Source: Eledone cirrhosa | Lineage: Eukaryota | NCBI GenBank assembly: GCA_964016885.1 | Contig: OZ024747.1 | Span: forward strand, 14,074,001-14,138,000 | Length of the DNA: 64,000 nucleotides | Direction: 5' to 3' | Shown here: piece by piece, positions 22,240 through 63,832 of the stretch | Layout: the number at the start of each line of letters is the position of its first letter | Position numbering within the stretch: the first letter of the stretch is position 1 | The notes under the pieces: model-generated | What the model saw: the letters and a program-made list of their open reading frames with translations, nothing else | What the model was told of the DNA's origin: nothing | Databases searched by the model: none | Position numbers and translations under genes: made by a program

Positions 22240-22580
22240 AGGATTGGTGTTGGTGCTCTGAAATAGCGATGTATACATGAGTGTATGTATAATATATTTG
22301 GCAATATACCGTATGTTTAATTAAAAACATTTAGAAGACCATACGCTAACAGTTTTAAAGTAGTGAATCCAGCCTCTACAATTTTCGGCGGAAGCAGTGG
22401 GTTGCGTGCCTCTGATGAACGCCAATCAGCCTGAAACAGACTGTCAGCTTATCTCCCTTCTTTCGCCGAAAAGATAATAAGTGACATAGTCACTACTTTA
22501 AAACTGATAGCGTATGGACTTTTAAATGTTTTTAATTAAACACACGGTATATTGCCAAATATACTATACATACATTCATA
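22240..22580 (+). mobile_element. Fold-back element (family D) with hammerhead-like core, Penelope-like pLTR remnant
   Basis: ~90-bp inverted arms (22276-22365 / 22488-22579) inside (TA)n. Core CTGATGA(22412)-acgc caatca gcct-GAAACAGACTGTC, with imperfect stems I and II. Confidence 0.65.
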
Positions 22581-24603
22581 TATATATATATATATATATA
22601 TATAACCAATCAACTTACCAACTAGCGAATCAACTAGAGACTGTGTTGTTGTATTGAACCTCGTTGTTTCAATGACGGATGTTTCAATTGTCAATCAAAG
22701 GAACAGCCGACCCGTGAAATTACCCTGTTTGTGGCTGAATATTATACAGATACGTGATCTGGGATGTAAGTTCTCAGGGAGATCCAGTGTGTGACAAGAG
22801 TCACCTTTTGAATTACAGGCGCAATTCATTTTTGCCAGCAGACTGAACTGGAACATGAAATAAAATTACTTGTTCAAGGGCACAACATGTCACCTCGAAT
22901 CAAACCCCACAACCTTACGATCACGAAGCAAACATCCTAAGCACTAAGCCATGCTCCTTCACTGTTATATCTAAAGTCTGTCTCGACCCCAGAGGTTCAT
23001 GAAGCCTGTGTTTATCCCTCCCCGTTTCCATGACGTTAAGCGACTGAGAGTGCAAGACTCCCCACTGGACAGGACGCCAGTCAATCGCAGAGTTAAACCT
23101 TCAACTATTGCTGCTGGTACTAATTCTCACCTGAGTATATACTGGATCAACTTGAAATATAATGTTTTGCTCAAGAACACCACATGCAAAACAGTCTAGG
23201 AATCGAACCCACGACATTATGATCGTAAATACAACACTCTTACCACTAGGCCTCTCACTTTCACCGTTATATAGTAAATATTAATTAGAAAGTCAGTGAA
23301 TTTATTTCGATACGAAACTAACCTGTTTAGCTTTTGTCCGCGACTAAATTGGCATCGGCTATACACAATGGAGTAATAACTTTGCGACTCTTGCATAATT
23401 CACCGATGCAGAGACGAACGCTACTATTAAACCATTGAAAATGACAGAATAAGCAATACCTAAATAAATGGCCAATCCTTCTAGTAACTCTAGCAACAAT
23501 AGTTGAACACACACATACACACAAAATTACGAATATATATATATATATATATATATACAGTATATTAAATTCAAAGGGGTATATATATATATATATATAT
23601 AATTAGACATAGTCAGTTTATATCTATATATCTATATATATATATATATATATACATACATACCCACACACACACATATATATATATATATATATATATA
23701 GATATGTATATATATATATATGTAAAAAATACATACATATATATATTTATATATATATATATATATATGTATGTGTGTGTGTATAGATTTATATACACAT
23801 ATTTATTACATACACACACATATATAAACATTTACATATTTACACACACACACACACATAAATATATATATATATATATATATATTTACTATATTTATTT
23901 TATATAGAAATGACACACACACATATAAATATGTGTGTGTGTATATATATATGCGTATCAACAGAAGAAATGTCTCTCTCTCTCTCACTCTCTCTCTCTC
24001 TCGCTCTCTCTCTCTCTCTCTCTCTCTCTCTCTCTCTCTCTCTCTCTCTATATATATATATATATATATATATATATATATATATATATATAAATACAAT
24101 ATCGGAGAAAGCTTTTTAGCGATACTCCGGCCAAATTCCAACTCACTCAACAAACATTAGGAAATAAGTGAGTATATTCCTAATTAATATATATATATAT
24201 ATATATATATATATATATATATGAAAAAGTGAGTCCTCATCAGTGACCCTCCAACCGTCCTCGGCATTTCATCGCTTTAAGGGCCATATGCCTCAGGTTG
24301 GTGCGAACAACGGCTAAACAAAGTCGTTGGGACACGTAAATAAGGGGGGGGGGGACATTAGAGTAACAATAAAAGGGTTATAGCAACGGAAAGTGAGTAG
24401 AAATAGACAAGTCCCAGATCTCTATGAATATAAACTCTGTGAAATCGTGAACAAGAGACGAAAGACCATCGAACCTGGTAGAAATGTGAGCAAGGAAAGA
24501 ATTTCGCCCTAGAACACTGGAAGGTAATATCCGTAGTGGTAGAGCACTCAGTCCATGGGACGAGTTAGGTAGAAGTGGTTACACAACAGTTAGTTCACCA
24601 TAC

Positions 24604-24641
24604 CGAGAACAATTGTTTCACCTTAGCGGATCCTCAGCTCG
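24604..24641 (-). ncRNA. Minimal type I hammerhead ribozyme
   Basis: Minus strand: cgag CTGAGGA t-cc-gctaa-gg-t GAAA caattg TT ctcg. Stem I cgag/ctcg and palindromic stem III. It lies in a ~430-bp insert (24221-24650) flanked by (TA)n. Confidence 0.7.
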
Positions 24642-26364
24642 TAATGGACAATATATATATATATATAATATATATATATATATATATATATATATATATA
24701 TATTTCTTATAGTTAAGTGACGAGTCTTGTTACTCTTGAGTTTCACCTGTGTACTCACAGGATCATCACACACACACACAGACACACACACACATATATA
24801 TATATATAATGATCGATATGATATATATATATACATAGTATATTCACATACATACATACATACATACATACGTACATACATATATATACACACATATATA
24901 TATATATATAATGATCGATATGATATATATATACATAGAATATTCACATACATACATACATACATACGTACATACATATATATACACACACATATATATA
25001 TATATATATATATATGTACATAATATACACACTATATTCCTTCATATATAATATGGACGCCTATACATATATACATACATGTATATATATATATATATAT
25101 AACCTCATATGTAAACACATTGCAGCAATATTCCTAAAGGAAATATTTCTTTTACACATTGTGAATATTTTGCCTGCAAGTAGCTGCCCCCGGCTTCTCG
25201 TAATTAATGAAACTAAATTAAGAACGTTTCAACGCTCAGTACTAATTATAACACTAATAACACTACTCCCACCACTACCACCACCACTAATAACAACACT
25301 ACTCCCACCACTACCACCACCACTAATTATAATTGTTTCTACTTTTGGAACAAGGCCAGCAATTATCCCAGTACGTGACTGGTACTTTACTTTATCGATC
25401 CCGTTAGGATGAAAGGCAAAGTTAACCTCGGCGGGATTTGAACTCAGATCAAAAAGCGCCGTAACTCTATGCTGTAAAGCATGGCGTCCGACGCTCTACC
25501 GAGACTGCCAATTAATAACAGCAATAGTGATGACGATAATGATGGCGGACGATAATGATGGCGGTTACATTGAAATTCTGATACGCCCGTAACTCTTGAT
25601 GGAATCGTAGGATCACCGTGGTGATATAAGACGTGCCTTGGTCATTTTGAACCTGACGGAGCTAATCTCCTCTCTAGGTCTGAACATAGCCGATTTCTTC
25701 CGTAGGAGAGAGAGATAGAGAGGGGGGGGTAAGAGATATAAAAGTAGAATCGACACCACTAGTGGACTCGTATTTTTTTTATCGATCTCGAAAGGAAGAA
25801 AGACAAAGTTGACCTCAGAATTCAGAAGGCAGAGAGCTGAATCGAATTCTCCGAAGCATTCTATATGTGCGTGTGTGTGTGTGTGTGTGTGCGTGCGTGT
25901 GTGTGTGTGCGTGTGTGTGTGTGTGTGTGTGTGTGTGAGGTTGTGTGTGTGAGTGTGTGTGTATAATGGCCGATAGAGAAGGCTTAAAATGACAGGAAAA
26001 TTGTCAGCGCCACTTTGGTATAATGGTTGCACTGTTGTTATGTATAGACATGCGATAGATGTAAATTCAAGCTCCACATGTAGTGCTGTTACCCTCTTTG
26101 AGTTTCTAGAGAGCCTATATGTCCAATTCGTTCCATTATTTTCCATAAGCAAAAGCCTGTGTTGGAGCAGATAAATTTAAGCTAACATACATTCAAAATT
26201 CATAATTTACTCAACTCTTAAAAGTTTATTTTAAATTAGTGTACATTCTCTCTCTATATATATATGTATATATGTGTGTGCGTGTATATATATATATATA
26301 TATATATATATATACATTCTCTCTCTCTCTCTCTCTCTATATATATATATATATATATATATAG

Positions 26365-61695: not shown

Positions 61696-62533
61696 GTACT
61701 GGGATAATTGCTGGCCTTGTGCCAAAAGTAGAACCAATTATTATTATTATTATTATTGGTGGATTGGTAGTATCGGTAGAGGGTCGGACACCATGCGTTG
61801 CAGCATAGAGTTACGCCCCTTTATGGTCTGAGTTCAAAACCCGCCGAGGTTAACTTTGCCTTTCATCCTTTCGGGTTCGATAAAATAAAGTACCAGTAAT
61901 GTACTGGGGTAATTGCTGGCATTGTGCCTAAAGTAGAAACAATTATTATGGCTGGAGGGCGAGGGATTGGCAGTATCGGTAGAAGGTCGGACGCCATGCC
62001 TTGCAGCATAGAGTTACGTCCCTTTACGGTCTGAGTTCAAATCCCGCCGAGGTTCACTTTGCCTTTCATCCTTACGGGGTCGATAAAATAAAGTACCAGT
62101 AATGCACTGGGGTAATTGCTGGCCTTTTGCCAATAATAGAAACAATTATTATTGGTGGATTGGCAACATCGGTAAAGGGTCGAACGCCATGCTTTGCAGC
62201 ATAGAGTTACGCCCCTTTGCGGTTTGAGTTCAGTTCCCGCCGAGGTTAACTTTGCTTTTCACCCTCACAGGTTCGATAAAATAAAGTACCAGTAATGTAC
62301 TGGGATAATTGCTGGCCTTGTGCCAAAAGTAGAACCAATTATTACTATTATTGGCAGTATCGGTAGAGCGTCGGACGCCATGCTTTGACGCATGGAGTTA
62401 CTGCCCTTTCCATTCTTAGTTCAAATCTCGCCGAGGTTAACTTTGCCTTTCATCCTTACGGAGTCGATAAAATAAAGTACCAGTAATGCACTGGCGTAAT
62501 TGCTGGCCTTGTTCCAAAAGTAGAAACAATTAT
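61696..62533 (+). mobile_element. Head-to-tail array of the abundant tRNA SINE (one partial and four nearly full copies)
   Basis: ~190-bp repeated units, each with A box, B box, central domain and short (ATT)n tail. Confidence 0.9.
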
Positions 62534-63772
62534 ATTCCATTCGTGGGACGTAGGCGGACTAGGTAGCGAGAGACCTTGATAGTCATTATACTTACTATGC
62601 ACCATGAATAGAATAAAACATACCAAAAAACTTCAAACAAGACGAAAAACGAAGCAATAATAATAAGAATCCTTGTCTATTTTTTTAATGTATTCTTTGT
62701 ATATTCAATTCTTTTCATGGGACAGATGAGAACAAGGGAATGAGGTTCTTGATAGTTGTACTGACTGTGTAAGAAACAAACATTGTTGATGGATTTGTTC
62801 TATTAAATATAATATATAAAAATAAAAGAATTGGATGATTTTCAACAAAATAAAGCAAAAACTAGAACAAAAACAACAAACTCCCTCCAAAATAATAACA
62901 ACAACAACAACAAACAAAAAAGAAAGCATTTCTCAAAAGAAACCGGACTCCACAAGCAAAAAACTGTTGCCAAATGCACAAACATCTAACACATTCGATC
63001 CCAGTAAAAAACGTACATTACCAGGCAGGGTATTGGTAGTGACAGCGGTGTGAAATCACAGGCCTATCCTTTTCTTTGTTTAACACAAAAATTCTAAATG
63101 AAAAAAGATAGCTTGAGCTAACAAGATAACTACACCCTGAGACAGTCATAACAACAGTGGTAGCAACACTGTTTTTGTTGTAAAAAGAGAGGAGTAGTAT
63201 GAGGTAGTCATAACAATAGTGGTAGCAGCACAAATTTTGTTATAAAGAAAGAGGATATTAGGGATACATTTTAGGAGTGTTGTAACACCGTCTTTTCCGA
63301 GATCAACAGAACAGCTAACATACTATAATTATACGTGTGTGTTGGTAACTTAGATCTGCTAGAAATAGGAGACAAATATCCAGAAATCACACTATATAGT
63401 TATATATAAAACAGGATGGGAACGTTGGAGAATGTAGGTCTATATATATACACACAATGCAGGGGAGAAAGTCAAGACGATCAGCTTGTTTATCTGTTTA
63501 CCAACACAACTGTCTACTGAATTATGTGCCGATTAAAGATTAAAGATGTTTATCGATTTACAGAGAAATTCGTATTTTCTAGCATGTTTACATGCTTAGT
63601 TATTAGATATATGTATATATTTATACTAGTTGGTGCAGTCTCGGTTACACAATCTGTATATATACAGATATAACTGTATGCACTCCAGCTGCTAGCCGAG
63701 CAAACCAGACCCATTCAAGCATGGAAAAGCGGACGTAAAATGATAATCGGTATGGTGTGGTATATAGATTTA

Positions 63773-63832
63773 TATTTCTGATGATCTAATTGGCAGTTAT
63801 ATTTTTGCAACTAGTGAAACGGGCGTAAAATG
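63773..63832 (+). ncRNA. Type I hammerhead ribozyme, slightly degenerate
   Basis: tattt CTGATGA t-ctaattggca...tgcaactag-t GAAA cgggcg TA aaatg. Confidence 0.65.

What the first reader, a model, noticed from the sequence alone, without database searches (positions are those of the whole stretch)
22240..63832. Around ten unrelated ORF-less hammerhead-ribozyme repeat families, mostly within (TA)n tracts
Seen: intact or near-intact CUGANGA...GAAA..UH cores with pairable stems at 22412, 24604, 37755, 38536, 44935/45133, 46686/47066, 47639, 49170/49349, 52491, 58818 and 63773, plus degenerate ones near 28788, 38065, 41538, 51986 and 54541. Stem sequences differ entirely between families while the core is retained, and most sit in (TA)n. 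Known: Penelope-like elements (PLEs) carry minimal type I hammerheads in their pseudo-LTRs, often leave inverted pLTR ends, and some target microsatellites. Inference: this is a diverse set of truncated or non-autonomous PLE-derived ribozyme elements. No RT or GIY-YIG coding sequence was recognised in the window.
Basis: partly seen in the sequence, partly recalled or inferred. Interest (0 to 1): 0.9.

Follow-up and report, generated by a model that had tools for sequence, protein, structure and literature searches.

The report
Hydra-type Penelope ends, twin hairpin signal
The ribozyme-like repeats are cut-short, often mirror-image tail ends of about ten related Penelope-type jumping genes and of non-coding passengers that likely use the same enzyme, most of them next to TA repeats; this kind is known, but a small shared RNA hairpin beside their two end points likely tells the enzyme where to start copying.

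Summary
A type I hammerhead descriptor finds 13 sites in the window against 0.17 in shuffles; 17 of 20 insertions touch (TA)n. The window encodes no Penelope protein, but elsewhere in the genome five families (A, B, F, I, J) continue upstream into Hydra-clade GIY-YIG endonuclease sequence (one old copy of H too). Family A has 3.9-kb tandem units and about 70 copies with an open 821-aa frame. Four families (C, D, E, G; 0.3-2.8 kb) showed no ORF and look non-autonomous. So the families are one clade, not unrelated, and Hydra elements with hammerheads and (TA)n targets are already described, also in octopus. New here: each family has two fixed 3' ends, head-to-head pairs use one of each (143 of 152), and a hairpin RCTC..GAGY-RC(T/C) starts just 3' of the short end (strict match in 7 families) and again just 3' of the long end (4 of the 5 autonomous-type or G families with tandem copies; a variant in F). 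It likely sets the two reverse-transcription start sites. Family I carries a fixed U4A core, J a U3-A8 core. No cleavage or RNA evidence.

The parts
22240..22575 (+). Family D: ORF-less unit of about 315 nt; direct arm with core at 22412 (one stem I mismatch) plus inverted 3' piece with the 28-nt tail
24506..24650 (-). Family F: 3' end of a Hydra-type element, core at 24637, tail hairpin 24565-24543
26364..26458 (-). Family E (second subfamily): short-ended arm, core at 26423, 5' strand of stem I lost
28631..28851 (+). Family I: 3' end of a Hydra-type element, core CAGAAGA at 28789 (A at position 4, family-wide), inverted tail piece on the left
30396..30531 (+). Family J piece: short palindrome plus tail, 5' half of the ribozyme absent; tail hairpin 30459-30485
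32331..32660 (-). Family K (sister of B): head-to-head pair, intact core at 32426 (-), tail hairpin 32600-32624 (+)
37692..37885 (+). Family E: head-to-head pair, core at 37755, tail hairpin 37821-37842; longest genomic form about 690 nt, no ORF seen
37942..38141 (-). Family I: truncated head-to-head pair with tail (variant hairpin 38025-37977)
38209..38850 (+). Family C: pieces of the ORF-less 445-nt tandem unit in both orientations, split by (TA)n; core at 38542
39217..39348 (+). Family I: short pair, core CAGAAGA at 39286
40643..40796 (+). Family J piece (variant subfamily), tail hairpin 40724-40750
44903..45327 (.). Family A: head-to-head pair, cores at 44995 (-) and 45139 (+), 83-nt tail on the right with hairpin 45244-45271; 96% identical to the pLTR of full-length tandem copies
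46640..47310 (.). Family C: head-to-head arms, cores at 46722 (-) and 47072 (+), each with one stem I mismatch
47595..48037 (.). Family B: head-to-head pair, intact core at 47695 (-), core at 47846 (+) with a mutated GAAA box, tail hairpin 47954-47976
49042..49447 (.). Family A: second pair with a different inversion centre, cores at 49230 (-) and 49355 (+), tail on the left (hairpin 49123-49096)
49598..49787 (-). Family J: palindrome plus 81-nt tail (hairpin 49669-49643); full ribozyme with U3-A8 core seen only in longer genomic copies
52390..52686 (+). Family B: single arm with tail, core at 52499, hairpin 52603-52625
53560..53637 (+). Family I remnant (two ends joined, no core)
   Evidence: read directly
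58766..59015 (-). Family G: short-ended 3' piece of a young ORF-less 2.8-kb tandem unit, core at 58871
63745..63885 (+). Family H: old decayed repeat, core at 63778; decayed Hydra-type endonuclease about 720 nt upstream in 1 of 18 loci

Best explanation
These are 5'-truncated, mostly head-to-head 3' ends of several Hydra-type Penelope-like retroelements, plus four ORF-less units likely copied by the same kind of enzyme, and most lie in (TA)n. Shown: families A, B, F, I and J run upstream into RT and/or GIY-YIG coding sequence elsewhere in the genome; every family ends at one of two fixed points (short end, or long end with a 28-145-nt tail); head-to-head pairs nearly always combine one short and one long end around a variable centre; a hairpin RCTC..GAGY-RC(T/C) begins 0-5 nt after the alignment-defined short end and a second one 6-9 nt after the long end. 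Inferred mechanism: a tandem (or circular) transcript carries hammerhead, hairpin 1 and hairpin 2; the RT-endonuclease, probably a dimer, binds the hairpins, nicks both strands of a (TA)n tract and starts cDNA just 5' of each hairpin, one start per strand; both cDNAs stop early and are joined at their truncated ends, giving the palindrome with a one-sided tail. ORF-less units that keep the hairpins are copied in trans. The hammerhead is predicted to cut the multimeric RNA (as a dimer or with protein help in A, B, C, D, F, G) but is probably dispensable for insertion. Confidence about 0.95 for the PLE identity of the coding families, 0.8 for trans-mobilisation of E and G, 0.65 for C and D, 0.55 for the hairpins setting the start sites.
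For: Endonuclease directly upstream on the same strand: A 11 of 30 loci, B 3 of 30, F 7 of 25, I 4 of 25, J 2 of 25 plus 1 incidental, H 1 of 18. Full-length A: pLTR-ORF-pLTR-ORF-pLTR with period 3896 and two 821-aa open frames bearing DKT, YRDD, CxCx5C, CxxC and CxH; about 70 of 150 scored N-terminal matches lie in 821-aa open frames at 97-99% identity (counted by hand). Endonuclease alignment shows the Hydra pattern without CCHH (criteria from PMC8557442 section 11). Two ends per family and pair counts: 143 long+short, 8 long+long, 1 short+short, 70 with an unclassified end, of 222. Many different left/right joints in assembled reads. Tail hairpin in 35/41 A, 25/28 B, 39/45 E, 12/15 F, 14/14 G, 26/26 J copies and in K; chance 0-0.002 per shuffled tail; tails share only 11-15-nt matches between families; position. 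Second hairpin after the long end in A, I, K and ORF-less G: 32 matches in 334 loci, at that place or at the 5' junction of A copies, 0 in 5 shuffles. The same hairpin is visible by eye at the ends of 5 of the 6 published novel Hydra consensus sequences, twice in tandem in Hydra-1_Ajap. In a Poseidon PLE both strands are cut and extended, RT starts at two internal sites that bound the tail, RNA 3' of them is needed, and hammerhead mutants still insert (PMC11167929). Tandem ORF-less units: C period 445-450, D about 315, G 2800.
Against: No experiment and no RNA data. The strict hairpin pattern is absent from I tails (0/20, one letter off), C (0/29) and D (0/18); their variants are by-eye matches. 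F's second hairpin is a variant seen in one copy; no tandem copy was found for B, E or J, so their second hairpin is untested. Two A copies begin at hairpin 2 (L310, L318), which fits a transcript-start or promoter role as well. A looser pattern finds the hairpin within the last 45 nt of other repeat families and has 6.8 chance hits per shuffle. Most search queries contained the tail, so the main hit was selected to be long-ended; only the partner's end is informative. Absence of an ORF in C, D, E rests on 30, 30 and 55 loci out of more than a thousand candidates each. 6 of the 8 long+long pairs are in C, whose ends are blurred by simple repeats. No tree against the published Hydra proteins was made. 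Family A reads RWT, not RWK, and its unit is 3.9 kb against 'generally <3 kb'.
Confidence: 0.8

Rival explanations
1. Same elements, but the hairpins do not set the start of reverse transcription: hairpin 2 marks the transcript start or internal promoter before the ORF, and the two ends come from endonuclease resolution of an intermediate or from self-priming on an antisense template.
For: Two A copies begin at hairpin 2 and it lies about 45 nt before the first Met; the Hydra-1_Ajap consensus starts at a hairpin. PMC8557442 ascribes the tail to endonuclease cleavage; PMC3846280 proposes antisense self-priming for head-to-head pairs.
Against: A promoter role does not explain a second copy of the hairpin at the same short distance from the other end in 7-10 families whose tails are otherwise unalignable, nor the one-long-one-short rule; the tail ends equal RT start sites in PMC11167929.
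Confidence: 0.35
2. C, D, E and G are not non-autonomous elements but long 3' UTR/pLTR parts of coding elements whose ORF-bearing copies were not sampled, or local tandem duplications.
For: Only 25-55 loci per family were read; coding families have 3' UTRs up to 1.2 kb; an earlier AI note found a retrozyme-like tandem to be an ordinary PLE tail (e1-7908855, unchecked).
Against: In C, D and G the sequence after the tail leads back into the same unit with no ORF between; a whole 2.8-kb G unit has no match to 32 Hydra-type proteins; 8 of 8 long E copies examined start at one point after a simple repeat. Copies are dispersed over many contigs with their own ends.
Confidence: 0.15
3. The palindromes are miniature DNA transposons (terminal inverted repeats, TA target) that happen to carry hammerhead-like letters.
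For: Inverted ends and TA flanks look like MITEs; Rfam and folding energy give little support for the ribozymes.
Against: Centres differ from copy to copy, ends are asymmetric by a fixed tail, many copies are single arms, and the arms continue into RT/GIY-YIG ORFs; descriptor hits are about 75-fold over shuffles; stem I covaries between E subfamilies.
Confidence: 0.02

Closest known systems
Hydra clade of C-terminal EN+ Penelope-like elements (Craig et al. 2021, PMC8557442), including Hydra-1_Obim from Octopus bimaculoides
   Same: Single ORF with C-terminal GIY-YIG, DKT, CxCx5C linker, CxxC and CxH, no CCHH; canonical hammerhead near the 3' end, often with U after CUGANGA and U before GAAA and a 3-4-bp stem III; (TA)n targets; partial tandems, inverted 5'-truncated copy, one-sided tail.
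   Different: At least 6 coding families and 4 ORF-less units meet in 42 kb; tails are 28-145 nt against 30-40; A's unit is 3.9 kb; none of the hammerheads equals that of Hydra-1_Obim; the twin hairpin, the A4 core and non-autonomous Hydra units are not mentioned in the parts read.
Poseidon PLE of Anolis (PAc), in vitro mechanism (Frangieh et al. 2024, PMC11167929)
   Same: AT-rich target, both strands cut, two internal RT start sites bounding the tail, hammerhead dispensable for insertion.
   Different: Other clade; start sites lie in an AC-rich stem-loop inside the ORF; no conserved sequence signal across families is described in the two parts read.
Animal non-LTR retrozymes (Cervera and de la Pena 2020, PMC7229834; Li et al. 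2026, bioRxiv 10.64898/2026.07.22.740005) and non-autonomous Chlamys PLEs (PMC8557442)
   Same: ORF-less tandem units of a few hundred bases with one type I hammerhead each (C, D); proposed to depend on PLEs.
   Different: Here the units carry the PLE insertion signature itself (inversion, two ends, tail, and in E and G the same hairpin as the coding families); arrays seen are only 1-4 units; circular RNA not tested; G is 2.8 kb.
Minimal hammerheads of metazoan PLEs (Cervera and de la Pena 2014, PMC4209133) and natural core variants (Perreault et al. 2011, PMC3088659)
   Same: Many families per genome with different stems, pairs on opposite strands 100-700 bp apart, palindromic stem III, U3-A8 covariation, U.U at 10.1/11.1.
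   Different: A family-wide A at position 4 was not in the passages read (U4C is mentioned; figures not visible).

Membership tests
Penelope-like element (EN+) | Single ORF with RT and GIY-YIG endonuclease attached to the repeat | tested here: met
   A full length; F RT+EN; I thumb+EN, B and J EN. Pfam GIY-YIG only weak on related ENs and absent on A.
Penelope-like element (EN+) | pLTR in partial tandem, inverted 5'-truncated copy, one-sided tail | tested here: met
Penelope-like element (EN+) | Type I hammerhead in the pLTR | tested here: met
   Descriptor 13 vs 0.17; family-level stems
Hydra clade | DKT motif, C-terminal EN with CxCx5C linker, CxxC and CxH around E and N, no CCHH | tested here: met
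   A all motifs; I linker, CxxC, CxH; B, J CxxC and CxH; F CxxC, with CxH altered in the copy aligned
Hydra clade | RWK motif | tested here: inconclusive
   A reads RWT; another family in the genome reads RWK; the Hydra-1_Crog consensus reads RWR by eye, so the third letter is not invariant
Hydra clade | Insertion into (TA)n | tested here: met
   17 of 20 window insertions; 444 of 602 classified genomic ends
Hydra clade | Placement in the Hydra branch of an RT tree | not tested
   Published reference proteins were seen only as supplement text; no tree made
Hammerhead ribozyme | Self-cleavage after NUH | not testable with these tools
   Needs in vitro transcription; 8 of 9 predicted Xenopus dimers did not cleave in the 2026 preprint
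Hammerhead ribozyme | Rfam model score above cut-off | tested here: not met
   Best 18.6 bits (HH9, cut-off 52) at 1 of 3 sites; none in the top 150 rows of the whole-window scan. The papers on PLE hammerheads use descriptors instead, so this is not treated as defining.
Non-LTR retrozyme (C, D) | ORF-less tandem unit of 170-450 nt with one type I hammerhead | tested here: met
   C 445-450 nt with 2-4 units; D about 315 nt partial tandems
Non-LTR retrozyme (C, D) | Expressed as circular RNA | not testable with these tools
   No RNA holder listed
MITE / TIR DNA transposon | Fixed symmetric terminal inverted repeats and fixed length | tested here: not met
   Variable centres, asymmetric ends

The most novel reading that the evidence does not exclude
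Hydra-clade PLEs carry a conserved twin-hairpin signal, kept from corals to octopus, that positions two reverse-transcription starts, one per target strand; this alone produces the tail and the head-to-head insertions, and any RNA with the two hairpins (including retrozyme-like units of 0.3-2.8 kb) is inserted into (TA)n in trans, whether or not its hammerhead still cuts.
Probability: 0.5. Interest if true: 0.7.

Novelty: new member of a known kind. Interest (0 to 1): 0.5.

Why it matters
What remains useful: how PLEs make their tail and inverted ends, and what mobilises animal retrozymes, are stated open questions. This genome offers a young coding family, ORF-less passengers, a short candidate cis signal at both start points, and a family with a fixed non-standard ribozyme core, so each question can be tested with the published in vitro assay. 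A defined two-hairpin signal for insertion of non-coding cargo into TA tracts would also help annotate these repeats, which look like MITEs.

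Tried and rejected
Whole-window Rfam scan was swamped by microRNA models on simple repeats; no hammerhead among the 150 rows shown of 443. Three narrow scans gave one weak HH9 match. The repeat finder was swamped by microsatellites; masked self-BLAST was used. Pfam gave no RT match on the Hydra proteins. Folding energies did not beat shuffles. 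Homolog search gave 32 proteins, one named (uncharacterised), no clade label. Metagenome locus search found no relative. No RNA holder listed for family C; the contigs laid may come from the same sample as the assembly and are not independent. Lunse et al. 2017 on dimeric PLE hammerheads is not held; it is known to me only from recall and reference listings. Breakpoints at the cleavage site: tested on incidental copies for C, E, G, I, J only (references for A, B, F failed in that script); no clear pile at the cleavage site; E piles just 5' of the core (12 of 20) and J at +39 to +56 (44 of 74). Rejected as hammerheads: 41538, 54541, 14626 (fails both descriptors). An ORF start upstream of one C copy belongs to another family and is separated by (TA)n. 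An early note called G's internal 510-nt repeat inverted; it is direct. Exact-string search for the second hairpin in the Craig supplement found nothing; variants were then seen by eye in displayed passages.

Full report
Setting. The window is G000:C7:14074001-14138000 of a 3.0-Gb genome, 33% G+C and rich in microsatellites. From a recalled SINE pattern I take the animal to be octopus-like; this comes from no call.

Observation. Both hammerhead core boxes are present at all 14 main sites. A strict descriptor gave 8 hits against 0.12 in shuffles; a relaxed one 13 against 0.17, maximum 1 in 150 shuffles. Of five degenerate sites, two belong to family I, two are not supported and one is inconclusive. 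Rfam and folding energy give little support. Masked self-BLAST shows most sites lie in local palindromes with the ribozymes pointing outwards. I count 20 insertions of 11 families (A-K; K is a sister of B); 17 have (TA)4 or more at one end at least, background 0.12 per side. The window has no Penelope protein match.

Coding families. Genome searches gave first-look candidates, which are not copy numbers: A 329, B 2633, C 1214, D 3064, E 2115, F 37, G 1646, I 1473, H 18, J 285; 18-30 loci per family were read. Endonuclease sequence lies directly upstream on the same strand in A (11 of 30 loci), B (3 of 30), F (7 of 25), I (4 of 25), J (2 of 25, plus 1 incidental) and, decayed, H (1 of 18). One A insertion is a 6.6-kb palindrome; another has two full units of 3896 nt, each with an 821-aa open frame carrying DKT, YRDD, CxCx5C, CxxC and CxH, and its pLTR is 96% identical to the window arm. 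About 70 of 150 scored N-terminal matches lie in 821-aa frames at 97-99% identity (hand count), so A is young and may be active. The endonucleases of A, F, I, J are 26-52% identical and lack CCHH. These are the Hydra features of PMC8557442 (section 11), whose supplement lists Hydra-1_Obim, (TA)n targets and hammerheads with the same U-flanked stem II.

ORF-less families. C is a 445-450-nt unit in arrays of up to four with inversions. D closes into a unit of about 315 nt. E extends about 550 nt upstream of its core to a fixed start after a simple repeat in 8 of 8 copies printed. G is a 2.8-kb unit, 99% identical between copies over the stretch searched, with a 510-nt internal direct repeat and no match to 32 Hydra-type proteins. 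None had an endonuclease upstream in 30, 30, 55 and 25 loci. Non-autonomous PLEs are known for Chlamys and argued for vertebrate retrozymes by phylogeny.

Insertion signature. Each family has a short and a long 3' end; tails are A 83, B 87, C 56, D 28, E 64, F 66, G 145, I 88, J 81 nt. Of 222 head-to-head pairs, 143 join a long and a short end, 8 two long (6 in C), 1 two short, and 70 have an unclassified end. Queries mostly held the tail, so only the partner end is informative. (TA)n follows 444 of 602 classified ends (summed). Centres vary, and assembled reads show about 70 different joints over one A palindrome (possibly the same sample). Inverted copy and tail are described features.

The hairpin. 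Looking at what follows the long end in tandem copies showed GCTCC-N3-9-GTTGAGC(A/G)CT 6-9 nt downstream in A, I, K, a K-like family and ORF-less G: 32 matches in 334 loci, none in 5 shuffles; it folds as a 4-5-bp stem in I, K and G, not in the A segment folded. A matching hairpin, mostly with an ACTC/GAGT stem, starts each tail: 35/41 A, 25/28 B, 39/45 E, 12/15 F, 14/14 G, 26/26 J, and K; 0/20 I (one letter off), 0/29 C and 0/18 D (looser variants by eye). Shuffled tails give it at 0-0.002, and tails of different families share only 11-15-nt matches. It starts 0-5 nt after the alignment-defined short end; the true break may be a few bases earlier because the spacer is TA-like. By eye the same hairpin is at the ends of five of six published novel Hydra consensus sequences from coral, sea cucumber, copepod and octopus, twice in Hydra-1_Ajap. 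The main text has no 'hairpin' or 'stem-loop', and searches listed no paper on it; subscription papers and Repbase reports are outside the library. In the Anolis PLE, RT starts at two internal sites that bound the tail, both strands are extended, RNA 3' of the sites is required and hammerhead mutants still insert. I infer that each hairpin positions one start, one per target strand. A transcript-start role for hairpin 2 is the main rival, since two A copies begin at it.

Ribozyme variants. I reads CAGAAGA in 33 of 36 copies and never CUGA, with 5-bp stems I and III; Perreault et al. mention U4C but, in the passages read, not U4A. J, the sister family (52% endonuclease identity), has a U3-A8 core in 2 of the 3 distinct long insertions matched by the pattern, the third having C3 with A8, and folds as a three-way junction; U3-A8 is known. 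Window copies of J lack the 5' half. Stem I covaries between E subfamilies. In 920 kb of loci a descriptor found 339 distinct hits in 46 clusters, 24 with two or more members; some singletons are chance and no shuffle was run for that looser scan.

Papers seen. PMC8557442: passages, section 11, supplement part 2 and search passages. PMC11167929: parts 1-2 of 4. PMC4209133: parts 1-2 of 4. bioRxiv 10.64898/2026.07.22.740005: parts 1 and 3 of 5, supplements not seen; they may list invertebrate families. PMC7229834, PMC13282606 (no 'hammerhead' or 'ribozyme'), PMC3846280: passages. PMC3088659: passages and section 8. Earlier AI notes from other genomes describe the same palindromic PLE ends; they are leads, not support.

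Verdict. Real, correctly read in outline, and of a known kind: new Hydra-type families and ORF-less passengers. The twin hairpin is the part worth following; it is a sequence-level inference awaiting the in vitro test. Interest 0.5.

Noticed in passing
window 24223-24505 (-): Another (TA)n-flanked, sometimes palindromic repeat family with only the first core box (CUGAUGA at 24243) and no GAAA; might be a Naiad-type 'half core' end. Family F abuts it.
   Followed up: partly
window 52200-52300: 3' end of a further (TA)n-targeting family with two ends and a tail (34 matches in the loci held); no hammerhead in this piece.
   Followed up: partly
window 41465-41560, 18447-18541: Small palindrome family of about 90 nt with a variable centre, TA-flanked; the CUGAUGA at 41538 is a chance change.
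   Followed up: partly
window 54418-54554, 54946-55021, 63530-63691: Pieces of one older repeat family in both orientations, no core seen in relatives.
   Followed up: partly
family J, 74 incidental copies in loci: 5' breakpoints pile at +39 to +56 from the core start (44 of 74), inside loop 2, so most J copies lack half the ribozyme; cause unknown.
   Followed up: partly
window 44521-46484: A SINE-derived 96-nt tandem array and flanking sequence are mirrored around the family A insertion (44521-44788 against 45776-45916 and 46297-46415), a larger inverted duplication.
   Followed up: no
window 61695-62533, 57410-58402: Tandem arrays: 193-nt SINE copies (about 4) and a 70-nt unit rich in AAC (about 14).
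   Followed up: no
L034:1261-1614 (-), L034:5691-6092 (+): Endonucleases of other, non-Hydra PLE clades lie beside Hydra insertions; (TA)n tracts act as nesting hot spots for several clades.
   Followed up: no
L078, L103, L119, L124, L129, L146, L155, L205, L208, L216, L253, L298: Further repeat families end about 30-45 nt after a GCTC/GAGC hairpin, followed by (TA)n; probably more Hydra-type tails.
   Followed up: no
window 49826-49901, 52811-52886: A 76-nt repeat present twice between microsatellites, with no relative in the loci held.
   Followed up: partly
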